IMG/VR virus record: IMGVR_UViG_2541047702_000001
From: a virus
Lineage: Duplodnaviria; Heunggongvirae; Uroviricota; Caudoviricetes
Direction: 5' to 3' (one strand)
DNA length: 36,638 nt
Below are positions 2,120 through 33,636 of this stretch, in pieces (the stretch's first letter is position 1; every line of letters starts with the position of its first letter). The notes under the pieces were generated by a model. It searched no databases. It saw only the letters and a list, made by a program, of their open reading frames with translations, and was not told the origin of the DNA. The position numbers were made by a program, and so were the translations under genes.

Positions 2120-2416
2120 TCAAATAGAGAAATAAACACAAAAACAAAAAACAACAGGAACAGCAAAATCCAACAGACTTCCCACATCCCACACGCGTGG
2201 ATCAAAACCTCCCCACCACGGCATGTTGATACGTTTCCCTTTCCCAAACTTTTCTATCCAGCGATATTCTGCCTGGGTGTGTTCACGCGCAATGAAGAAC
2301 GTACAACCGGCTATCGCACCGTAAGCCCAGTTTCCGGTAAAAATACCAACCAGTACCTGAGCCGCAAAAGCGCAAAGCGAGTGAAGAAATGGAGTGACAT
2401 CAATGCTCTTAATCAT
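2120..2416 (-). CDS. Small hydrophobic protein translationally coupled to tailspike (function unknown)
   Basis: ATG overlaps the tailspike stop (ATGA at 2413-2416); 98 aa with hydrophobic N- and C-terminal segments. A +1-frame ORF (1930-2247) continues beyond its stop across T5/T6 runs. Confidence 0.5.
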   Translation of the reverse strand: MIKSIDVTPFLHSLCAFAAQVLVGIFTGNWAYGAIAGCTFFIAREHTQAEYRWIEKFGKGKRINMPWWGGFDPRVWDVGSLLDFAVPVVFCFCVYFSI

Positions 2417-4602
2417 GAAACTTCCCCATTGGTTGAAAATATAGCTCCTCCAACGCCAAGTGTATTTCGTGTTGTGCTCAACCTCAGAGGGCTGGAGTCA
2501 GAATTAGAATATCCTGTAGCAGAAATAAAAGATCCTCCACTAATAGTCAACTGCGGAACATCGGCTATATCTGAATAAGTTCTGTCAGCAACAGTATTAT
2601 TTATAGCCACATATGATCCAAAAAAACTTCTTATTGTTTGGTTTTTAACTTTACTTCCTTCAATGGTTATCCTACTACCACAGTCGGCAATAAATCCTGA
2701 ATCTGCATCCAGCGTTGCATTCATAAAAGAAGCTTCAGATCTCTCTACATCAATCCATCTAATATCTTTTGTGGGATTTGCACCAAATACATGACAAATA
2801 TTAGAGTTAAACCTTACACCATCTTGGAGGTGCATTAATTTTTTTATATCTGTACCCCATAGCCTTGGAAAATTAACAGATGCTCCTGCATGGCAATCAA
2901 ATCCCAGCTCAGCCCCTGAGATATCTACAGCCTTTCCTGAAATAACAGCACCAGTGTCTGCATTAACGGCTGTTCCACAATTGCGCATATCATTACCAGC
3001 AACATCAACGCAACCCGCACCATCAATACGCACACCAAGTGCACATCCATAAAAACCTTTTTCAATATTTGGTTCAAGGACTTTACCACTTGTTTCTGCA
3101 TCACTTTCTTCAACGTCATGTCGTCTTGCATCAACATATGCTGTATGAATGCAGGTTAATCCACGATATGAGCAATGTATAGTTTTATGGTCGCGTATAT
3201 TAACATTTGAACCATCTCTTACATTCCATCCTATATAACAATAGCTTGCACTTGACCCCTGAAAATCTGCTTTAACATTATAAATACAATTAACTGACGC
3301 AACCGTACTCTCTGTGCACCGTTCAAACTTGCTTACAGGCATTGATGCCTTGACATTATTTACCAGTTGCAGGGAAGAGTATCTGCTATAAGAAAAATCA
3401 CATACGTAATACCCTTCTGGCATATATGCAGCAACACTTTCCTCATCAGGAGCACATCCGGTATGATATGCACTAATTTTTGCACCAAAACTACCATGAA
3501 TTCCAACGTAGAACTTTCGAGCACCTGAATACGGATAGAAATTAAGTTCAGCTTTTTGAGTTACAATAAATGCACAAACATCGCTATCATCTCTATTTTC
3601 TTCGATCTGAATAGCAAATACAGGACTTTTTGCTGCATCGCAAATGTAAAATAAATACTTGTATTCGTAATACGTTCTAACGATTTTAGTAAACAAACGA
3701 GTGTCAGAGAAAACCACTGAGTCTTCTGATGTTATTTTAATCCAAGACAAATCAACACCTGAACTGAATTCAATTTGATAGTTGATAATATGCCCGGTCT
3801 TAATTCTTATTTCGCAGAAAGCATTACCACCATCCCACATAGGTCTCATTGACTGGGCTGCAATGATTGCATCTTTGAGTGTAGGGTAATCACCCCATTC
3901 GCCAACAGTAATAACAAAAGTATAATATGAGTTAAAAACAGCGGCATTTTTGCCTTTGGATATCAACTCCTTAATCATAAAAATATTATCTTCGTAATCA
4001 CAAGGAGAAATTATATCCCTCATTTTGCTTTGAAATGTTCGTTGTCTTGCCCCGCTTCCTGACGGTATAAACCAACCAAAACCACCAACAACCCCGGCGA
4101 TTGCAGCATCGACATAATTACGCATTGAGCGATTATTTACAGCGTCCTGCTCAAGTGATGGATCTGCAAGGTTAGAAATTCTGTTTTGCTTTGCATCGTA
4201 ATATTTTGCAAGCAAAGATGGTTTCATCAATGCACGTCTGAACCACCCGAAACATCGCTGGATCAGCATCGTCAGGTAGTCAAATGCATCCTCATGAACT
4301 TCGGGGAAAAATTTTCCCTGATTGCGAAGATCAGTCTCCTGCACCACATCAAGCACACGCTCTATCGTAATTCGCCATCCAGCAGCAAGCGGCGACGGGA
4401 GAACCACTTCACCGCCACTATAAGTGCCCGCTCCAGTTACCTTATAACCGGTATCCAGAACCAATTCTGTTACGTTCCCGTTCAGGTCAGACACCTGAAC
4501 AACCAGGTCGGTTTTTTTGAAAATACGGAAGGTATACGGAAATGATGTCGTAACGCCGTTACCGGTGTATTCGTTGTGGTCAACTTCGGTTGAGACCGTC
4601 AT
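2413..4602 (-). CDS. Tailspike / receptor-binding protein with conserved N-terminal virion-attachment domain and C-terminal Cys/Gly-rich probable beta-helix domain
   Basis: 729 aa; N-terminus MTVSTEVDHNEYTGNGVTTSFPYTFRIF... matches the N-terminal domain I recall from epsilon15/phiV10-type tailspikes; GGAG Shine-Dalgarno 8 nt upstream of ATG 4602; C-terminal 500 aa rich in Gly, Cys, Asn, Ser. Confidence 0.7.
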   Translation of the reverse strand: MTVSTEVDHNEYTGNGVTTSFPYTFRIFKKTDLVVQVSDLNGNVTELVLDTGYKVTGAGTYSGGEVVLPSPLAAGWRITIERVLDVVQETDLRNQGKFFPEVHEDAFDYLTMLIQRCFGWFRRALMKPSLLAKYYDAKQNRISNLADPSLEQDAVNNRSMRNYVDAAIAGVVGGFGWFIPSGSGARQRTFQSKMRDIISPCDYEDNIFMIKELISKGKNAAVFNSYYTFVITVGEWGDYPTLKDAIIAAQSMRPMWDGGNAFCEIRIKTGHIINYQIEFSSGVDLSWIKITSEDSVVFSDTRLFTKIVRTYYEYKYLFYICDAAKSPVFAIQIEENRDDSDVCAFIVTQKAELNFYPYSGARKFYVGIHGSFGAKISAYHTGCAPDEESVAAYMPEGYYVCDFSYSRYSSLQLVNNVKASMPVSKFERCTESTVASVNCIYNVKADFQGSSASYCYIGWNVRDGSNVNIRDHKTIHCSYRGLTCIHTAYVDARRHDVEESDAETSGKVLEPNIEKGFYGCALGVRIDGAGCVDVAGNDMRNCGTAVNADTGAVISGKAVDISGAELGFDCHAGASVNFPRLWGTDIKKLMHLQDGVRFNSNICHVFGANPTKDIRWIDVERSEASFMNATLDADSGFIADCGSRITIEGSKVKNQTIRSFFGSYVAINNTVADRTYSDIADVPQLTISGGSFISATGYSNSDSSPLRLSTTRNTLGVGGAIFSTNGEVS

Positions 4603-4706
4603 GTTAAATCTCCAGATAGTCGCAGCACCCGTTGCGCCGCATATCTGGTTATTCTATTACCTTAAAAACCACATATGGATAGAAAGACTGTGAATACGAA
4701 TAGATA

Positions 4707-4721
4707 TTACCTTTCGGGTAA
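4707..4721. promoter_or_regulatory. Operator-like palindrome TTACC-TTTCG-GGTAA (exact)
   Basis: Exact match to the recurring motif; lies between divergent tailspike gene and the LexA-box promoter. Confidence 0.6.
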
Positions 4722-4760
4722 TTTGCAAAACGTGCTGGATAGCAAACAAATTATTTGATA

Positions 4761-4776
4761 CTGTATAAATATACAG
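4761..4776. promoter_or_regulatory. LexA (SOS) box CTGTATAAATATACAG overlapping a promoter for the plus-strand ORF 4798-5055
   Basis: Perfect CTGT-N8-ACAG with AT-rich spacer, flanked TA...TT (TACTGTATAAATATACAGTT); possible -35 TTGATA at 4755-4760; GGAGAAG ribosome-binding site at 4786-4792. Confidence 0.75.
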
Positions 4777-4797
4777 TTATTGCATGGAGAAGATAAG

Positions 4798-5055
4798 ATG
4801 CAGCAGTATCACTATCCACTGGAAGACGGATTTACCGAAAGGATTCACACGCCGGGAGGCGTCAGGTCACTGGTGGAGGGATCGCACTTGATGAAATTAC
4901 TCCGGGATCTCGATAAGGATGGATTTAATGTCGATGGCCCACTTGCCGAACTGACTGCACTGATTAACTATGTCACCAGCTCACAGATGTCTATGCAGGA
5001 TCTGCAAACACATCTCGACTATTGTGCCGAACAATTACGAAAACAAACCCGGTAA
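4798..5055 (+). CDS. Small LexA-regulated protein, candidate SOS-inducible antirepressor (function inferred from context only)
   Basis: 85 aa, ATG 4798 with ribosome-binding site; LexA box over its promoter; followed by a bidirectional terminator; opposite in orientation to all flanking genes. Confidence 0.5.
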   Translation: MQQYHYPLEDGFTERIHTPGGVRSLVEGSHLMKLLRDLDKDGFNVDGPLAELTALINYVTSSQMSMQDLQTHLDYCAEQLRKQTR

Positions 5056-5061
5056 ATTTAA

Positions 5062-5079
5062 AGGCCGCGAAAGCGGCCT
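5062..5079. terminator. Bidirectional intrinsic terminator hairpin AGGCCGC-GAAA-GCGGCCT between convergent genes
   Basis: 7-bp GC-rich stem; T-rich on the plus strand downstream (CCCTTTT) and on the minus strand (revcomp of 5041-5060 is T-rich). Confidence 0.6.
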
Positions 5080-5087
5080 GTGACATG

Positions 5088-5384
5088 TCACGTCCCTTTT
5101 CTGAATGATAGCCATTCGAAAAATGATGACATTCCACCGCAGACAATAGCAAAGATGATCCCACCAAAGAAGAGAAGGCCAGCCTGCCACCACTCCCACC
5201 GCCATACATCCACAGCGCCAACCATACCAACAATCGCTCCAACAAATGGAATATAGCTCACGATGAAAGCAATGGGGGCTGCAATTATCCAGTGCAATCC
5301 CCACCATGATTCAAGCCCAGCCATAATTGCTGCCAACTGAAAAAGACCAACGACGATATAAACAATGAATCCTATAGCTTGCAT
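5088..5384 (-). CDS. Small integral membrane protein (about 3 TM helices), function unknown; candidate superinfection-exclusion or host-surface-modification accessory protein
   Basis: 98 aa, strongly hydrophobic; AGGTGA ribosome-binding site before ATG 5384; last gene after the ejection-protein genes. Confidence 0.55.
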   Translation of the reverse strand: MQAIGFIVYIVVGLFQLAAIMAGLESWWGLHWIIAAPIAFIVSYIPFVGAIVGMVGAVDVWRWEWWQAGLLFFGGIIFAIVCGGMSSFFEWLSFRKGT

Positions 5385-21637: not shown

Positions 21638-21652
21638 CGCACAAATTATTAC
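21638..21652. promoter_or_regulatory. Operator-like palindrome TTACC-TTTCA-GGTAA (exact), with TTGACA -35-like hexamer 17 bp upstream
   Basis: Exact motif; TTGACA at 21616-21621; lies in the intergenic region between portal-operon start and the tRNA unit. Confidence 0.55.
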
Positions 21653-21983
21653 CTTTCAGGTAAGCAAAGGGTTCATTCCGGTTATTAACCTGACTGGCTT
21701 GTCGTTAAATTGAACAGGTGGAGTGAGCTTTTATTTTGAGCAGTACGGCGTATGGCACATGCGCCGATAGCGGTCTGGATACGTTTAAGGGGCACCCTCC
21801 CTTGCTCGGGCAAACGAACCAGGTAGCCGGAATGTGCAAGCCCCGTTCATATCGTCGGACCGAGGACTCACCATCCTGGCGATTCGGTGTGACGCCTCGG
21901 AAGAGACGAGGGTACAACGATGAGAGCATTTATGGAGCCGCGACAAAGTGTGGCGCCTTAACAGGCTAAGTGCTCTCAGCGTT

Positions 21984-24199: not shown

Positions 24200-24792
24200 T
24201 GATTACCATCCTGACGTTCTTTGAGTCGCTTCCTGGCTGCTGCTATGCGATCAGCAATTGTCACATTCACATTAACATCCAGGCGTTCTTTGAATGCGTT
24301 GACGTCGACGTGCTTACCAATCAGTTCGAGGTTCTTCACCTTGTCAGGCCATTTAATTTTTTTGAGGATTGTCTCTATCGAATCCTCGTTCATGTTCATG
24401 ATGGTCGATGACAGATCAAAGCCGCTAAGCGTAGTGCGCCAGATTTTCGGCCACTCGCGGATTGGCTTAAGGCTCCCATCGTCGTTGAGGATGTCGATCA
24501 CGTCCATCTGGTCGATCTCCACCAGGCGCATGAGAACGTAATCAGCACTGACGCGCATTCGTTTGTTGCGCTCCTCCATCAACTCGGCAATCCGTTTTTG
24601 AATGCGTTCATCGCGCATCATGACACTGGCTTTAACTGCCGCTGTATTTGGGGAGAATCCTGCATTAATCGCTGCCTGAGTCTGGTTTTCAGGCGTTTTG
24701 ATGTATGACTGGCAATAAGCCTCCTGCATTGCTGTGAGCGGCTTAAATTGCGTTGATTTGCGTTTATAGGTTTTAGGTTCAGCAGGCATCAT
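24196..24792 (-). CDS. Terminase small subunit
   Basis: ATGATG at 24792/24789 (ORF-track start 24870 is an upstream extension); basic N-terminus, overlaps terL start; first gene after a terminator. Confidence 0.55.
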   Translation of the reverse strand: MMPAEPKTYKRKSTQFKPLTAMQEAYCQSYIKTPENQTQAAINAGFSPNTAAVKASVMMRDERIQKRIAELMEERNKRMRVSADYVLMRLVEIDQMDVIDILNDDGSLKPIREWPKIWRTTLSGFDLSSTIMNMNEDSIETILKKIKWPDKVKNLELIGKHVDVNAFKERLDVNVNVTIADRIAAARKRLKERQDGNQ

Positions 24793-24824
24793 AACCACCG
24801 TGGTAATAGTTACCGTTGTGGTAA
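24792..24824. promoter_or_regulatory. Two tandem operator-like sites (TAACC-ACCGT-GGTAA at 24792-24806, 1 mismatch; TTACC-GTTGT-GGTAA at 24810-24824, exact) overlapping the terS initiation region
   Basis: Appears as direct repeat GTGGTAATAGT(T)ACC x2 just upstream of ATG 24792. Confidence 0.5.
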
Positions 24825-28308: not shown

Positions 28309-28385
28309 TTACCCCTTAGGTAATTAAAAACCACATAAGACATGAAATCAATAGACGTTAGAACATTTTATTACCCACTAGGTAA
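28309..28385. promoter_or_regulatory. Two exact operator-like palindromes (TTACC-CCTTA-GGTAA 28309-28323; TTACC-CACTA-GGTAA 28371-28385) 62 bp apart
   Basis: Both exact; located between P-like gene stop and nuclease gene start, the first only 4 bp from the ATG. Confidence 0.55.
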
Positions 28386-30292: not shown

Positions 30293-30307
30293 TTACCTTT
30301 GAGGTAC
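30293..30307. promoter_or_regulatory. Operator-like site TTACC-TTTGA-GGTAC (1 mismatch) downstream of the cro terminator
   Basis: Read in sequence; sits between terminator 30310-30341 and the CII-position gene. Confidence 0.4.
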
Positions 30308-30362: not shown

Positions 30363-30593
30363 TCATGAGTAGAAGAAGTATGCCAGTTCTGCTTTTGAGC
30401 GCAACCATTGTCTTGTTTTACAGGCTTTAAAAAGCCCATTCATCAATACTTTACCTGGCATTTTGCGCTTACCTGTTAAGTGAGTCTGGATATAATGACT
30501 CGTCGTTCCGGCTTCCTGTGCGAAGGCTTCACGCTCATCCGGAGTAAGTGCAAGCCAGTGCTTTTTGAAATCGAAATGTCCGTTATCGCTCAT
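30363..30593 (-). CDS. Cro-like HTH regulator
   Basis: 76 aa; HTH-like segment REAFAQEAGTTSHYIQTHLTGKRKMP; divergent from repressor gene across a three-operator region. Confidence 0.5.
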   Translation of the reverse strand: MSDNGHFDFKKHWLALTPDEREAFAQEAGTTSHYIQTHLTGKRKMPGKVLMNGLFKACKTRQWLRSKAELAYFFYS

Positions 30594-30628
30594 AGCTATT
30601 GCCTGATATTTATTTCAGATAATAAATA

Positions 30629-30691
30629 TTCACCCATAAGGTAACAAAAATCAAGGATAGTTACCTATGGGGTGCATTTACCTGTTGGGTA
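30629..30691. promoter_or_regulatory. Tripartite operator region between divergent cro-like and repressor genes: TCACC-CATAA-GGTAA (30629-30643), TTACC-TATGG-GGTGC (30660-30674), TTACC-TGTTG-GGTAA (30677-30691, exact)
   Basis: Three sites of the same palindromic family in a 147-bp AT-rich intergenic region, analogous to OR1-3. Confidence 0.6.
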
Positions 30692-30747
30692 ATATTGCTT
30701 TAAATTGAATCATCTACTGATTCATATATGAGGCGATTTTCCAGAAA

Positions 30748-31332
30748 ATGAAAAGTATCCAGGACGTCCGCAGGCAAAATCTCAACGACTTGATCGACCG
30801 TGAATTCAATGGTGTTCAGACGCGGATGGCAGAAAAACTTGGAACTCAGGCAAATCTGGTAAACCGCTGGGCTCTTGGCAAGAAGGTTATCGGCGACCAG
30901 GTTGCGCGAAAAATTGAAGCTGCCGCCAATAAACCCCGTAACTGGCTTGATATCGATCGCTCGCTTTCTCAGGAAGGTTTTCAGCCTGTCGGCCCAAGCG
31001 ACATTGGTCAGCTGGCGGCTCACAACCTGGAACGCTGGATGAGCGAAAGCCGCGACCTTTCAACACAGGGAAAACTTCACCGCGCATCCGGCGTCGCCCA
31101 GGTGACAATCAGCCGCCTGTTAAACAATGAGGTCAGCGTTTCCATTTCCACCCTGGAGAATGTTGCATCCGCATTCGGGCGTCACGGCTATGAATTACTG
31201 ATTCACCCGCACGACCCTGCGACCATCAACTATGACCGCTCGCGCTACGCATTGTTACCCGAAACCGAGAAAGCAAAGATCGAAAGTTACATTGAATTTG
31301 TCATCAACCAGAACGAAAAAAACAAACAATAA
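30748..31332 (+). CDS. Prophage repressor (CI-position) with two tandem XRE-type HTH domains and no recognisable S24 peptidase domain
   Basis: 194 aa; two HTH-like segments (about residues 20-70 and 95-150); C-terminus lacks Ser/Lys peptidase motifs; followed by terminator and a second operator cluster; weak ribosome-binding site (possibly leaderless-like). Confidence 0.6.
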   Translation: MKSIQDVRRQNLNDLIDREFNGVQTRMAEKLGTQANLVNRWALGKKVIGDQVARKIEAAANKPRNWLDIDRSLSQEGFQPVGPSDIGQLAAHNLERWMSESRDLSTQGKLHRASGVAQVTISRLLNNEVSVSISTLENVASAFGRHGYELLIHPHDPATINYDRSRYALLPETEKAKIESYIEFVINQNEKNKQ

Positions 31333-31353
31333 AATCATATTTTTCAGTAAGTA

Positions 31354-31378
31354 AGCCGCCTTCTGGCGGCTTTTTTAT
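31354..31378 (+). terminator. Rho-independent terminator after the repressor gene (GCCGCC-TTCT-GGCGGC then T6)
   Basis: Read directly; 22 nt after the stop codon. Confidence 0.75.
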
Positions 31379-31389
31379 TGCCTGCGCAA

Positions 31390-31466
31390 TTACCTTAAGG
31401 GTAATTTTTTTAACTCATATCTATTGACACCAAACCAAATACGCATAATTATTACCTCAACGGTAA
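31390..31466. promoter_or_regulatory. Early-left promoter/operator region: exact operators TTACC-TTAAG-GGTAA (31390-31404) and TTACC-TCAAC-GGTAA (31452-31466), with TTGACA -35 at 31424-31429
   Basis: The second operator overlaps the predicted -10 (TAATTAT about 31446-31452). Confidence 0.6.
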
Positions 31467-31485
31467 CAGACCGAGGTAACAAGTT

Positions 31486-31640: not shown

Positions 31641-31940
31641 ATGAACGTTAATCAGCAGAAAAATCTTCAAAAAATCATGCTGGCATTCGACAAGGACTAC
31701 AGCCTGTCAGAACAGCTATATGACCGACAAGTTGAACTGATTGAGAGTATCCGGCTTCATCAACTGGCATCAACTTTCGACGTTGTAACAGTTAAAGGCG
31801 TTCGCCAGGAAGTACTGGAGGCCGCTAAAGACAGCCCTGAGTTCGAAGAACTAATGGATGCCTACCGGCGCGAGGCAATGGCAATTATCGCCCGCTGGGA
31901 TCTGGCTGATCAGATTGATGGGCAGAGGGACGCGGCATGA
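31641..31940 (+). CDS. Hypothetical early protein
   Basis: ATG 31641 (in-frame internal start of the ORF-track entry 31626-31940); stop overlaps exonuclease start. Confidence 0.4.
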   Translation: MNVNQQKNLQKIMLAFDKDYSLSEQLYDRQVELIESIRLHQLASTFDVVTVKGVRQEVLEAAKDSPEFEELMDAYRREAMAIIARWDLADQIDGQRDAA

Positions 31941-32758
31941 ATCCGGGAATTTATTTCGATATCAGCAACGAGGACTACCACGCCGGTGACGGCGTGAGTA
32001 AGTCGCAGCTAGATATGGTGGCTAAGAACCCTGCCCTTCTGAAATGGGTGAAGGCTGCTCCGGAAGACGAAGAGAAGAAGTCTGCACTGGACATGGGTAC
32101 TGCTCTGCACTGTCTGCTTCTGGAACCTGGAGAGTTTGACAAACGCTTCATCGTTTCACCGAAATTCGATCGTCGGACAAAACAAGGTAAAGCTGACGAA
32201 GAGGCATTTCTTCGTGATGTAGCGGATATGGGGATTACGGTACTTGATGCCGAGCAGTGGCGGAAACTGGAGCTGATGCGTGATAGCGCAATGGCTCACC
32301 CGGCGGCACGCTGGATGCTGGAAGCACCTGGTTACTGCGAAGCATCAATGTACTGGAACGATGAAGAGACTGGTGAGTTGTGCCGCATTCGTCCAGACAA
32401 ATGGCTGAACGAGCACAACGTGATCGTCGACGTGAAAAAGGTTGCAGATATGGACCGTTTTGCACGCCACATCGAGGAATTCCGCTACCACGTGCAGGAC
32501 GCAATGTACCGCGAAGGCGCAATGAGGGTTACTGGTCAGCCGCATGGTTTTTTCTTTCTTGCCGTGAGCGAAAGCATTGATTGTGGTCGGTATCCGGTAC
32601 GCGTGTTCGAGCTGGATGCGCCGGATGTCGATGCCGGTCACGATCTGTTCCGCCGGGATCTGAATACCTATCACGAATGCCGCATCAACGATGAGTGGGG
32701 CGGAGTGGAAATTATTAAACGCCCTGACTGGGCACGTAAACAGGATATGTACGTATGA
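31937..32758 (+). CDS. PD-(D/E)xK exonuclease, RecE-like (exonuclease VIII-type nuclease domain)
   Basis: 273 aa; N-terminal YFDISNEDYHAGDGVSKSQL motif as recalled for RecE-type nuclease domains; translationally coupled to the downstream RecT gene. Confidence 0.55.
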   Translation: MNPGIYFDISNEDYHAGDGVSKSQLDMVAKNPALLKWVKAAPEDEEKKSALDMGTALHCLLLEPGEFDKRFIVSPKFDRRTKQGKADEEAFLRDVADMGITVLDAEQWRKLELMRDSAMAHPAARWMLEAPGYCEASMYWNDEETGELCRIRPDKWLNEHNVIVDVKKVADMDRFARHIEEFRYHVQDAMYREGAMRVTGQPHGFFFLAVSESIDCGRYPVRVFELDAPDVDAGHDLFRRDLNTYHECRINDEWGGVEIIKRPDWARKQDMYV

Positions 32759-33636
32759 GCAATGATATCGCAATCACATCACAACCAGGCGCAACTGTAG
32801 GTACTGCTGCGGCAATCTTCAGCCCGGAGGGCATGAATCAACTGGTGCGTTTCGCGGAGTTGATGTCACAAAGCAAAGCGACTGTACCGGAACATCTTGA
32901 AGGCAAACCTGCCGATTGTCTGGCGGTGACCATGCAGGCGGCACAGTGGGGAATGAACCCTTTCGCCGTGGCGCAGAAAACGCATGTGGTAAACGGAAAG
33001 TTAGGCTACGAAGCACAGTTGGTAAACGCGGTCGTATCCTCTTCCAGCCTGCTAGCGACACGCCTGAATTATCGCTGGAGCGGTGACTGGTCGAATGTTA
33101 ACGGCAAAACAGATAAATCACCGAATCTGACGGTAACTGTGTCAGCAGTTCTTAAAGGAGAAGCAGAACCCCGTGAGCTTACCATCAGTATGGCGCAAGC
33201 CGGAGTGCGTAACTCTCCATTGTGGGAACAGGATCCGCGCCAGCAGCTTGCCTATCTTTGCACGAAACGATGGGCTCGCCTGCACGCTCCTGATGTGCTT
33301 CTCGGTGTTTATACCCCTGACGAATTACAGGAAACGGCACCGCGCGTTGAGCGAGACATTACTCCGCAAACAACTACTGCTGCGGGAATGAACAGTCTGA
33401 TCAACGCTAAACCAGTGAAAAAGCCTGATGAGCAAACTCGTAAAGCGGATAGCCGTGATCCAGAAGAAATGCTGATGGCCTTTACCAGCGCAGCGATGAA
33501 TTACAGCACTGTCTCCGAACTGGATAAGGCTTACAAATACATTGCACAAAAACTTTCAGATGATGACGAACTGCTGGCAAAAGCCACCGACGTTTACAGC
33601 GTTCGTCGGGAAGAATTAAACGAAACATCTATGTAA
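32755..33636 (+). CDS. recT: RecT-family single-strand annealing recombinase
   Basis: 293 aa; position after exonuclease with ATGA overlap; overall resemblance to RecT (recalled). Confidence 0.6.
   Translation: MSNDIAITSQPGATVGTAAAIFSPEGMNQLVRFAELMSQSKATVPEHLEGKPADCLAVTMQAAQWGMNPFAVAQKTHVVNGKLGYEAQLVNAVVSSSSLLATRLNYRWSGDWSNVNGKTDKSPNLTVTVSAVLKGEAEPRELTISMAQAGVRNSPLWEQDPRQQLAYLCTKRWARLHAPDVLLGVYTPDELQETAPRVERDITPQTTTAAGMNSLINAKPVKKPDEQTRKADSRDPEEMLMAFTSAAMNYSTVSELDKAYKYIAQKLSDDDELLAKATDVYSVRREELNETSM

What the first reader, a model, noticed from the sequence alone, without database searches (positions are those of the whole stretch)
30748..31332. Immunity repressor with duplicated HTH domains and no autocleavage domain
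The CI-position protein consists of two XRE-type HTH-like halves and lacks the C-terminal S24 peptidase (Ser/Lys dyad) region that makes lambda-type repressors RecA-cleavable. Induction must therefore use another route; the LexA-controlled ORF at 4798 is the obvious candidate, as in antirepressor-based systems known from Gifsy-type and 186-type phages. The gene also appears to lack a good Shine-Dalgarno sequence.
Basis: partly seen in the sequence, partly recalled or inferred. Interest (0 to 1): 0.65.

Follow-up and report, generated by a model that had tools for sequence, protein, structure and literature searches.

The report
Known phage repressor with LexA-controlled antirepressor
This gene is the immunity repressor of a common phiV10/epsilon15-type E. 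coli prophage, and it is switched off by a small SOS-controlled antirepressor rather than by self-cleavage, a mechanism already solved structurally in the related Salmonella phage SPC32H, so the finding is correct but ordinary.

Summary
The ORF at 30748-31332 (+) is real and encodes 194 aa. It is 100% identical to gp40 of phage phiV10 and to ORF21 of phage ZX5. GenBank already annotates phiV10 gp40 as [quoted passage not shown]. It aligns over its full length (42% identity, E=4e-42) with Rep of Salmonella phage SPC32H (PDB 5D50/5D4Z).

It has an N-terminal HTH, a second HTH_3-like middle domain and a roughly 40-aa C-terminal tail. No S24 peptidase domain and no Ala-Gly/Cys-Gly site were found by Pfam, PDB sequence or profile search, or fold search.

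The ORF at 4798-5055 is 88% identical to SPC32H Ant, the antirepressor co-crystallised with Rep. Just upstream lie the window's only strong LexA box (TACTGTATAAATATACAGTT, 18/20 to consensus) and a Rep operator (ATTACC-N5-GGTAAT). This promoter layout is conserved in nine loci from about eight enterobacterial genera.

Two refinements apply. The protein has three modules, not two halves. In SPC32H the second HTH-like domain serves dimerisation and the tail serves tetramerisation and Ant binding.

The weak Shine-Dalgarno is confirmed (GAGG 13 nt upstream) but is not unusual in this phage.

The parts
30748..31332 (+). rep: immunity repressor, 194 aa (stop codon included)
   Evidence: ORF. 100% identical to phiV10p40 and ZX5 ORF21. 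Full-length match to SPC32H Rep 5D50_A, E=4e-42.
30748..30930 (+). Rep residues 1-61: N-terminal Cro/YdaS-like HTH, the DNA-binding domain by homology
   Evidence: Pfam YdaS_toxin 21-61 and DUF739. PHROG repressor families cover 1-76. Helices at 4-60 in the model. 54% identical to SPC32H Rep, with NLVNRW conserved in the third helix, the presumed recognition helix.
30931..30993 (+). Rep residues 62-82: flexible linker
   Evidence: pLDDT <50 for residues 62-80. Length-variable in the family alignment. No AG/CG cleavage motif.
30994..31200 (+). Rep residues 83-151: second, HTH_3-like domain (the middle dimerisation domain in SPC32H Rep)
   Evidence: Pfam HTH_3 best stretch 106-147. 3VK0 XRE regulator E=2.5e-7 over 83-173. 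5D4Z covers 89-190. The MDD role comes from PMC9986798.
31201..31329 (+). Rep residues 152-194: C-terminal tail (tetramerisation and Ant-binding 'CAD' / TetDloop in SPC32H Rep)
   Evidence: Aligned to 5D50/5D4Z. 44% identical to SPC32H. Long helix at 172-193 in the model. Function is taken from PMC9986798 and PMC9638917.
30630..30692 (.). OR-like region with three Rep operators: 30630-30644 (TCACC-N5-GGTAA), 30661-30675 (TTACC-N5-GGTGC) and 30678-30692 (TTACC-N5-GGTAA)
   Evidence: The same three-site layout is present in SPC32H and epsilon15.
30619..30647 (-). PR-like promoter for the cro-like gene (TTGTTA-17-TATTAT), overlapping the first operator
   Evidence: Consensus scan, 9/12. Inference only.
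30363..30593 (-). Cro-like gene, 76 aa, divergent from rep
   Evidence: PHROG 35 'transcriptional repressor', E=5.6e-13. Homologue of epsilon15 gp39 and phiV10p41.
31353..31372 (+). Intrinsic terminator of rep
   Evidence: 8-bp stem with 6 GC pairs plus a T-run. A terminator is annotated at the same place in phiV10.
31389..31467 (+). OL/PL-like region: operators at 31389-31405 and 31451-31467 flank the promoter TTGACA-17-AATTAT (31424-31452), which drives the recombination/early operon
   Evidence: The equivalent sites are annotated 'repressor binding, lysogeny' in the epsilon15 record.
4798..5055 (+). ant: 85-aa antirepressor
   Evidence: 88% identical to SPC32H Ant, 5D50_E, E=4e-47. PHROG 450, and the C-terminal region of PHROG 1760 'anti-repressor'.
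4759..4778 (.). LexA (SOS) box TACTGTATAAATATACAGTT, ending 19 nt upstream of the ant ATG
   Evidence: 18/20 to consensus. Unique in the window, 0 expected. Half-sites are invariant or nearly so in nine loci.
4706..4722 (.). Rep operator ATTACCTTTCGGGTAAT upstream of ant
   Evidence: Perfect 17-mer. Conserved in nine loci. Annotated as a repressor site in epsilon15.
5062..5079 (.). GC-rich hairpin after ant (terminator; ant is monocistronic)
   Evidence: A rho-independent terminator is annotated at the same place in epsilon15.

Best explanation
The window is a phiV10/epsilon15-type temperate podophage (genus Uetakevirus). The 194-aa protein is its immunity repressor, Rep.

By homology with SPC32H Rep, the N-terminal HTH reads the palindrome ATTACC-N5-GGTAAT. 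The second HTH-like domain makes the dimer. The C-terminal tail makes the tetramer, which is the DNA-binding form. Rep occupies operators at the divergent cro-like promoter, at the rightward early promoter just downstream of rep, at several other intergenic sites, and upstream of ant.

Rep cannot cleave itself. Induction works through the 85-aa antirepressor Ant (4798-5055). Its promoter region carries a strong LexA box in addition to a Rep operator. DNA damage leads to RecA-stimulated LexA cleavage, then ant transcription. Ant binds Rep (in SPC32H, an Ant tetramer binds the C-terminal and N-terminal domains of two Rep dimers) and releases it from DNA, so lytic genes are derepressed.

Shown here: the homologies, the domain layout, the absence of S24, the positions and conservation of the LexA box and operators, and the weak SD.
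Taken from the literature on the homologue: the tetramer, the Ant-Rep complex and the LexA dependence. Published for the identical protein: overexpression blocks lytic growth (ZX5 ORF21).
Inferred: that the phiV10-type Rep (42% identical) is bound by this Ant.
For: - Phage identity.
- Rep matches 5D50_A over its full length, E=4e-42, and E=4.8e-65 with a family profile. Foldseek top hits are 5D50/5D4Z.
- Ant matches 5D50_E at 88% identity.
- Rep and Ant homologues were found in 37 and 35 phage records, mostly the same Uetakevirus genomes. The rep locus is in 539 and the ant locus in 529 of 5426 complete E. coli genomes.
- The LexA box is unique in the window.
- Phylogenetic footprint: in nine loci from Escherichia, Salmonella, Klebsiella, Enterobacter, Citrobacter, Ca. 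Erwinia, Pseudocitrobacter and Scandinavium, the invariant blocks upstream of ant are the operator half-sites, a CTGGA block and the LexA half-sites.
- TTACC-N5-GGTAA occurs 12 times with at most 1 mismatch, against 0.62 expected, and no shuffle reached that count.
- The epsilon15 record annotates these sites as repressor-binding.
- Identical ZX5 ORF21 repressor: overexpression abolished free phage and cut endolysin/holin transcripts by more than 99.9% (PMC9782041).
- Rep tetramer, Ant tetramer and domain roles: PMC9638917, PMC9986798.
- LexA-dependent Ant induction is attributed to Kim & Ryu 2013 in PMC7380047 and PMC9437464.
- No S24 domain and no AG/CG site.
Against: - The primary SPC32H papers (J Virol 2013; PNAS 2016) are not in the held library. 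The mechanism is therefore cited second-hand and from my own recollection of the abstract.
- Rep here is only 42% identical to SPC32H Rep, and 30% in the middle domain. No experiment I could find tests the small Ant against the phiV10-type Rep. The ZX5 study tested a different, Bro-N-type antirepressor.
- No sigma-70 promoter reached the scan threshold for ant or for rep, so the exact overlap of the LexA box with the ant promoter is inferred.
- The AF2 model has only moderate confidence (pLDDT 71, pTM 0.41).
Confidence: 0.88

Rival explanations
1. Rep is a cryptic self-cleaving (LexA/lambda CI-like) repressor, and induction is by RecA-stimulated autoproteolysis. Ant would be accessory.
For: None found. 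The only argument is that many lambdoid CI-position proteins work this way.
Against: No Peptidase_S24 hit at E<=1. PDB sequence and profile searches return only 5D50/5D4Z and HTH proteins. Foldseek returns no LexA/CI/UmuD C-terminal fold. The protein has no Ala-Gly or Cys-Gly dipeptide. The region after the linker is helical and is the solved dimerisation and tetramerisation unit of the homologue.
Confidence: 0.02
2. Ant acts mainly at infection, biasing the lysis-lysogeny decision or countering a resident prophage's immunity as P22 Ant does. Prophage induction would depend on something else, such as spontaneous loss or proteolysis of Rep, or another antirepressor such as the Bro-N type carried by phiV10 and ZX5.
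For: ZX5 lysogens release about 1e7 PFU/mL spontaneously, and overexpressing its Bro-N antirepressor lowered lysogeny (PMC9782041). ant lies next to the tailspike gene, as the immI ant of P22 does (own knowledge). It also carries a Rep operator, so it is repressed in a lysogen.
Against: The Bro-N cassette is absent from this window, while the LexA box is strong, unique and conserved across genera, which only makes sense for SOS control. Reviews attribute SOS/LexA-dependent induction in SPC32H to Ant.
Confidence: 0.07
3. Both HTH domains bind DNA. Rep would be a two-headed repressor in which the middle HTH_3-like domain still reads a second DNA motif, rather than serving only as a dimerisation module.
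For: The middle domain keeps a canonical HTH_3 signature (38.5 bits). Q118 and R123 in its putative recognition helix are invariant in the 26-sequence phiV10-type alignment. Residues 106-192 weakly resemble the complete CTX-phage repressor RstR (NCBIfam E=7.7e-4, below cutoff) and the XRE regulator 3VK0.
Against: In SPC32H the domain is described as a dimerisation domain, with DNA binding assigned to the N-terminal domain (PMC9986798, PMC9638917). Q118 is Pro in SPC32H and epsilon15 Rep. This is the least conserved module between the two clades (30%), yet the operators are the same. Only one over-represented palindrome was found.
Confidence: 0.05

Closest known systems
Rep/Ant of Salmonella phage SPC32H (PDB 5D4Z, 5D50; Kim & Ryu 2013 J Virol 87:11775; Kim et al. 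2016 PNAS 113:E2480) and the near-identical epsilon15 gp38/gp19
   Same: Same genus (Uetakevirus), and the same gene order with rep divergent from a cro-like gene. Rep is homologous over its full length with the same three modules. Ant is 88% identical and sits next to the tailspike gene. The operator consensus ATTACC-N5-GGTAAT is the same. The same LexA box plus operator lies upstream of ant.
   Different: Rep is only 42% identical (middle domain 30%) while Ant is 88% identical. The host is E. coli rather than Salmonella. The Ant-Rep interaction has not been tested for this Rep variant in anything I could access.
phiV10 gp40 and vB_EcoP_ZX5 ORF21 (E. coli Uetakeviruses)
   Same: The Rep protein is 100% identical. 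GenBank already notes 'two helix-turn-helix motifs'. Overexpression of ZX5 ORF21 blocks the lytic cycle (PMC9782041).
   Different: phiV10 and ZX5 carry an extra Bro-N-type antirepressor cassette downstream of the small ant. The window has a 98-aa membrane-protein ORF there instead.
Gifsy prophage repressors (GfoR/GtgR) with LexA-controlled antirepressors (GfoA/GftA); coliphage 186 CI/Tum; N15 AntC
   Same: The same logic applies: a repressor lacking the autocleavage domain is inactivated by a small antirepressor whose gene is repressed by LexA (PMC3121763).
   Different: No sequence relationship was detected. Gifsy repressors are single-domain (~136 aa). There the antirepressor lies in a dinI operon near the replication genes, not next to the tailspike gene. 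Here ant is additionally under a Rep operator, and Rep is a three-module tetramer.
Lambda CI / P22 C2 / LexA (HTH + S24 peptidase)
   Same: The position in the genome, divergent from cro with three operators between. The N-terminal HTH DNA-binding domain. Oligomerisation through the C-terminal part. A weak or absent ribosome-binding site on the maintenance transcript (lambda cI from PRM is leaderless; own knowledge).
   Different: No S24 domain, no Ser/Lys dyad context and no Ala-Gly site. Inactivation is by a binding partner rather than proteolysis.
Small XRE repressors with a C-terminal tetramerisation tail (Rco of pLS20, RstR of CTX phage, Neisseria NHTF 3VK0)
   Same: Residues ~83-194 look like a whole repressor of this kind: an HTH followed by a short tetramerisation element (PMC9986798).
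   Different: Rep carries an additional N-terminal HTH, which is the DNA-binding domain in SPC32H. The similarity to RstR is far below the family cutoff (19.7 vs 80 bits).

Membership tests
SPC32H-type Rep/Ant antirepression switch (Uetakevirus) | Repressor homologous to SPC32H Rep over its full length | tested here: met
   phmmer E=4e-42, residues 1-190 vs 2-197 of 5D50_A. Profile E=4.8e-65. Foldseek top 12 hits are all 5D50/5D4Z.
SPC32H-type Rep/Ant antirepression switch (Uetakevirus) | Three modules: N-terminal DNA-binding HTH, middle dimerisation domain, C-terminal tetramerisation/Ant-binding tail | tested here: met
   All three regions align with the solved protein. The model shows helices 4-60, linker 62-80, helices 83-151 and a tail helix 172-193. 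The functions of the modules are not testable here.
SPC32H-type Rep/Ant antirepression switch (Uetakevirus) | Cognate small (~86 aa) antirepressor Ant encoded next to the tailspike gene | tested here: met
   85-aa ORF 4798-5055, 88% identical to 5D50_E. It is divergent from the tail fibre/tailspike gene 2413-4602, as in SPC32H.
SPC32H-type Rep/Ant antirepression switch (Uetakevirus) | ant under LexA control (SOS box in its promoter region) | tested here: met
   TACTGTATAAATATACAGTT at 4759-4778, 18/20 to consensus and unique in the window. Conserved in SPC32H, epsilon15 and six further loci. LexA binding itself was not tested.
SPC32H-type Rep/Ant antirepression switch (Uetakevirus) | Rep operator palindrome shared by the immunity region and the ant promoter | tested here: met
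   ATTACC-N5-GGTAAT at 4706-4722, 30630-30692 (three sites), and 31389-31405 and 31451-31467. Twelve sites against 0.62 expected.
SPC32H-type Rep/Ant antirepression switch (Uetakevirus) | Rep binds DNA as a tetramer, and an Ant tetramer binds two Rep dimers and releases them from DNA | not testable with these tools
   Known for SPC32H only (PMC9638917). Needs biochemistry or a multimer structure prediction.
LexA / lambda CI-type self-cleaving repressors (HTH + Peptidase S24) | C-terminal S24 peptidase domain with a Ser/Lys dyad | tested here: not met
   No S24 hit at E<=1 in Pfam. None in PDB sequence or profile searches at E<=10. None among the 50 listed Foldseek hits.
LexA / lambda CI-type self-cleaving repressors (HTH + Peptidase S24) | Ala-Gly (or Cys-Gly) scissile bond in the inter-domain linker | tested here: not met
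   No AG or CG dipeptide anywhere in the 194 residues.
XRE / HTH_3 (PF01381) DNA-binding domain family | Score above Pfam's gathering threshold | tested here: met
   38.5 bits against a cutoff of 23, two stretches, the best at 106-147.
Coliphage 186 CI/Tum and Gifsy GfoR/GfoA antirepressor systems | Sequence homology of repressor and antirepressor to CI186/Tum or GfoR/GfoA | tested here: inconclusive
   No PDB chain named as 186 CI appeared at E<=10. Ant has no Pfam or NCBIfam family. Tum, GfoA and GfoR sequences were not compared directly. Only the regulatory logic (a LexA-repressed antirepressor) is shared.

The most novel reading that the evidence does not exclude
Rep may have arisen by fusing an extra Cro/YdaS-like HTH onto a complete RstR/NHTF/Rco-like mini-repressor (an HTH plus a tetramerisation tail). 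In the phiV10 clade the 'dimerisation' HTH keeps canonical DNA-contact residues (Q118, R123 invariant), so it may still read DNA. That would make Rep a two-headed repressor with a second, unrecognised specificity. A related point: one highly conserved Ant (88%) facing very divergent Reps (42%) that use the same operator would predict cross-induction and cross-immunity between E. coli and Salmonella Uetakeviruses.
Probability: 0.06. Interest if true: 0.45.

Novelty: already known. Interest (0 to 1): 0.12.

Why it matters
It matters little as a discovery. The protein, its two HTH motifs, its operators and its antirepressor partner are all in the public record, and the mechanism has crystal structures in a sister phage.

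The practical value is in annotation. About one in ten complete E. coli genomes carries this prophage (539 of 5426). RefSeq there calls rep an 'HTH domain-containing protein' and ant a 'hypothetical protein'. As a result, the SOS-inducible switch of a very common E. coli prophage, relatives of which modify the O antigen, is not recognised in routine annotation.

The phiV10-type Rep (42% identical to the solved one) paired with an almost unchanged Ant is also a natural test case for how much repressor divergence an antirepressor tolerates.

Tried and rejected
- My first LexA pattern (CTGT-N10-CAG) had the wrong spacing and found only chance matches. The corrected CTGT-N8-ACAG and the 20-mer consensus found the site.
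- I looked for a second Ant-like gene in the window, because close relatives showed 2-3 tblastn 'places'. There is none. The extra places are explained by the Bro-N antirepressor cassette of phiV10 and ZX5, whose family's C-terminus resembles Ant (PHROG 1760).
- I tested internal duplication directly. BLASTP of residues 1-85 against 86-194 gives no in-register match. hhalign of the two domain alignments gives an in-register HTH alignment but only P=7e-4 and 26% probability. So both are HTH-like, but 'duplicated' is unproven.
- The consensus promoter scan found no sigma-70 promoter above threshold for rep or ant. A conserved TGGATA-17-TACTGT arrangement upstream of ant is only a guess at -35/-10.
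- I tried to read the primary papers (PMC3807360, PMC4983836, PMC2698709). They are not held, so the mechanism is cited through papers that describe them.
- NCBIfam gave only sub-threshold hits (RstR, HigA, TreR).

Full report
**What the window is.** The region around the finding is 97-99% identical at the DNA level to Escherichia phages phiV10, TL-2011b, vB_EcoP_ZX5 and related records, and about 77% identical to Enterobacter phages Tyrion and BUCT554. These are temperate podophages of the genus Uetakevirus, the epsilon15 group. The ORF map matches: tail fibre/tailspike, virion proteins, terminase, replication genes, a cro-like gene, the repressor, recombination genes and an integrase.

**Checking the observation.**
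- The ORF 30748-31332 (+) exists as described and encodes 194 aa.
- It is 100% identical to phiV10 gp40. The GenBank note for gp40 already reads 'putative transcriptional repressor; two helix-turn-helix motifs (PF01381); similar to putative repressor epsilon15p38'.
- Pfam gives HTH_3 at 38.5 bits (cutoff 23) in two stretches, the best at residues 106-147. It also gives a YdaS/Cro-like HTH at residues 21-61. Nothing resembling Peptidase_S24 appears even at E<=1.
- A profile of 26 family members (52-88% identical to the query) searched against all PDB sequences finds SPC32H Rep. It also finds HigA-type HTHs for residues 14-89, and the XRE regulator 3VK0 (E=2.5e-7) and LacI-type HTHs for residues 83-173. 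It again finds no S24-containing chain.
- An AlphaFold2 model built on that alignment (mean pLDDT 71) shows a helical bundle at 4-60, a disordered linker at 62-80, a second helical bundle at 83-151, and a tail ending in a long helix at 172-193.
- Foldseek against the PDB returns 5D50/5D4Z first and then small XRE HTH proteins (NHTF, Stl, SinR, DdrO, C proteins). No LexA/CI/UmuD catalytic fold appears.
- The sequence contains no Ala-Gly or Cys-Gly dipeptide.

So 'two HTH-like parts and no autocleavage domain' is confirmed, with two caveats. First, there is a third module, residues 152-194. Second, 'duplicated' is not established. BLASTP of the halves finds nothing in register. hhalign of the two domain alignments gives only an in-register HTH alignment with P=7e-4 and 26% probability.

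**What it is.** The protein aligns over its full length (residues 1-190 against 2-197, E=4e-42, 42% identity) with the repressor Rep of Salmonella phage SPC32H. Structures of Rep alone (5D4Z, residues 92-198) and in complex with its antirepressor (5D50) are solved.

Papers that describe the SPC32H work state the following:
- Rep has an N-terminal DNA-binding domain, a middle dimerisation domain and a C-terminal domain (CAD/TetDloop). The C-terminal domain makes tetramers and binds Ant.
- Rep binds DNA as a tetramer.

Reviews cite Kim & Ryu 2013 for SOS/LexA-dependent production of Ant as the induction route (PMC7380047, PMC9437464). The primary papers themselves are not in the held library.

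For the identical protein in phage ZX5 (ORF21), overexpression eliminated free phage and reduced endolysin and holin transcripts by more than 99.9% (PMC9782041). This supports its role as the lysogeny repressor.

**Regulatory anatomy in the window.**
- The palindrome TTACC-N5-GGTAA occurs 12 times with at most 1 mismatch, against 0.62 expected. No shuffle reached that number.
- Three copies lie between rep and the divergent cro-like gene, at 30630-30644, 30661-30675 (degenerate) and 30678-30692. The first overlaps a leftward promoter-like site.
- Two copies, at 31389-31405 and 31451-31467, flank a strong rightward promoter-like site (TTGACA-17-AATTAT). This site lies just after the rep terminator and ahead of the recombination operon.
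- One perfect 17-mer sits upstream of ant at 4706-4722.
- The same layouts are present in SPC32H and epsilon15. The epsilon15 GenBank record annotates such sites as 'repressor, lysogeny'.
- Between the ant operator and the ant Shine-Dalgarno (GGAG, 8 nt before the ATG) lies TACTGTATAAATATACAGTT (4759-4778). It matches the LexA consensus at 18 of 20 positions and is the only site in the window within three mismatches, against zero expected.
- I aligned the ant upstream region from the window, four other phages and five bacterial genomes found by scanning one genome per species. The hosts are Escherichia, Salmonella, Klebsiella, Enterobacter, Citrobacter, Ca. Erwinia, Pseudocitrobacter and Scandinavium. 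The invariant blocks are the operator half-sites, a CTGGA block and the two LexA half-sites, while the spacers vary. This is the footprint expected of functional dual control by Rep and LexA.

**How it most likely works.** In the lysogen, Rep tetramers occupy the operators and silence the cro-like, early and ant promoters, and LexA additionally shuts ant. DNA damage activates RecA, LexA cleaves itself, and ant is transcribed. Ant sequesters Rep through its C-terminal and N-terminal domains, Rep leaves the operators, and the lytic programme starts.
- Shown here: homology, domain layout, absence of S24, and the positions, statistics and conservation of the sites.
- Taken from work on the homologue: tetramerisation, the Ant-Rep complex and LexA dependence.
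- Inferred: that this Ant binds this Rep.

The conservation pattern fits that inference. The N-terminal domain and the tail, which contact Ant in SPC32H (as I recall the 2016 abstract), are 54% and 44% identical to SPC32H Rep. The middle domain is only 30% identical.

**Shine-Dalgarno.** The only SD-like element before rep is GAGG, ending 13 nt upstream of the ATG (-5.6 kcal/mol against the anti-SD). That ranks 19th of 26 genes in the equivalent phiV10 region. The cro-like gene, int and several small genes are as poor or poorer. SPC32H and epsilon15 have no SD-like element there either. No rep promoter reached the scan threshold, so a leaderless or short-leader transcript, as for lambda cI from PRM, remains a hypothesis for 5'-RACE.

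**Comparison with known systems and membership.** Every sequence-testable defining feature of the SPC32H-type Rep/Ant switch is met: full-length Rep homology, three modules, a cognate Ant beside the tailspike gene, a LexA box, and a shared operator. The oligomeric mechanism cannot be tested here.

The defining features of LexA/lambda CI-type repressors, an S24 domain and an Ala-Gly site, were tested and not met.

No homology to them was detected, but Tum, GfoA and GfoR were not compared directly.

**Novelty and verdict.** This includes database annotation of the identical protein and crystal structures and mechanism for the sister phage.

What remains unaddressed in anything I could access is a direct test of the small Ant against the phiV10-type Rep. 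The ZX5 study tested a different, Bro-N-type antirepressor that this window lacks. The locus is very common, with rep in 539 and ant in 529 of 5426 complete E. coli genomes. It is annotated there only as 'HTH domain-containing protein' and 'hypothetical protein'.

The most novel reading not excluded is that the middle HTH-like domain plus tail is a former complete RstR/NHTF-like repressor that may still bind DNA. I give this about 6%. Interest is low.

Noticed in passing
window 21649-21663, 24792-24824 (two sites), 28309-28385 (two sites), 30293-30307, 36474-36488: Further ATTACC-N5-GGTAAT Rep-type operators lie in intergenic or promoter-proximal positions far from the immunity region. They sit upstream of the portal-side operon, at the small-terminase start, between the replication and DUF1064 genes, after the cro-like gene's terminator, and upstream of int. 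Rep therefore appears to control many transcription units directly. The epsilon15 record annotates several equivalents.
   Followed up: partly
window 5088-5384 (-), compared with L009 2955-3769 and L010 3071-3750: phiV10 and ZX5 carry a Bro-N-type 'anti-repressor/anti-immunity' cassette (plus a short Ash-family ORF in ZX5) immediately downstream of the small ant gene. The window lacks it and has a 98-aa membrane-protein ORF (PHROG 3075) on the opposite strand instead. The small Ant matches the C-terminal 50 residues of the Bro-type antirepressor family PHROG 1760 (E=4.5e-7).
   Followed up: partly
window 4652-4680: The block TCTATTACC-N~7-AACC-N2-ATATG-N-AT, containing a lone ATTACC half-site, lies between the tailspike start and the ant operator and is conserved in all six phages aligned. 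Its function is unknown. It could be part of the tailspike promoter or an IHF site; epsilon15 annotates an IHF site nearby.
   Followed up: no
window 4734-4764: An invariant CTGGA(T)A block lies 17 nt upstream of TACTGT (the left LexA half-site) in nine loci. It could be the -35/-10 pair of the ant promoter, with the LexA box overlapping the -10. It did not reach the consensus-scan threshold.
   Followed up: partly
rep (30748-31332) versus ant (4798-5055), compared with SPC32H: The two partners have diverged very unevenly. Ant is 88% identical to the SPC32H protein while Rep is 42% identical (middle domain 30%), yet the operator consensus is unchanged. This suggests either modular exchange of the immunity region or strong constraint on Ant, and it predicts possible cross-induction or cross-immunity among Uetakeviruses.
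   Followed up: partly
window 31937-32758 and 32755-33636 (+): The exonuclease (RecE-like, 273 aa) and annealing protein (RecT-like, 293 aa) are separate overlapping ORFs here. The phiV10 record annotates a single 1761-bp 'recET fusion' at the same place.
   Followed up: no
Rep residues 106-192 (window 31063-31323): There is a weak, sub-threshold resemblance to the whole CTX-phage repressor RstR family (NCBIfam NF041951, E=7.7e-4, 19.7 bits against a cutoff of 80), and a stronger one to the Neisseria XRE regulator 3VK0 (E=2.5e-7). This hints that the middle domain plus tail descends from a complete small repressor.
   Followed up: partly
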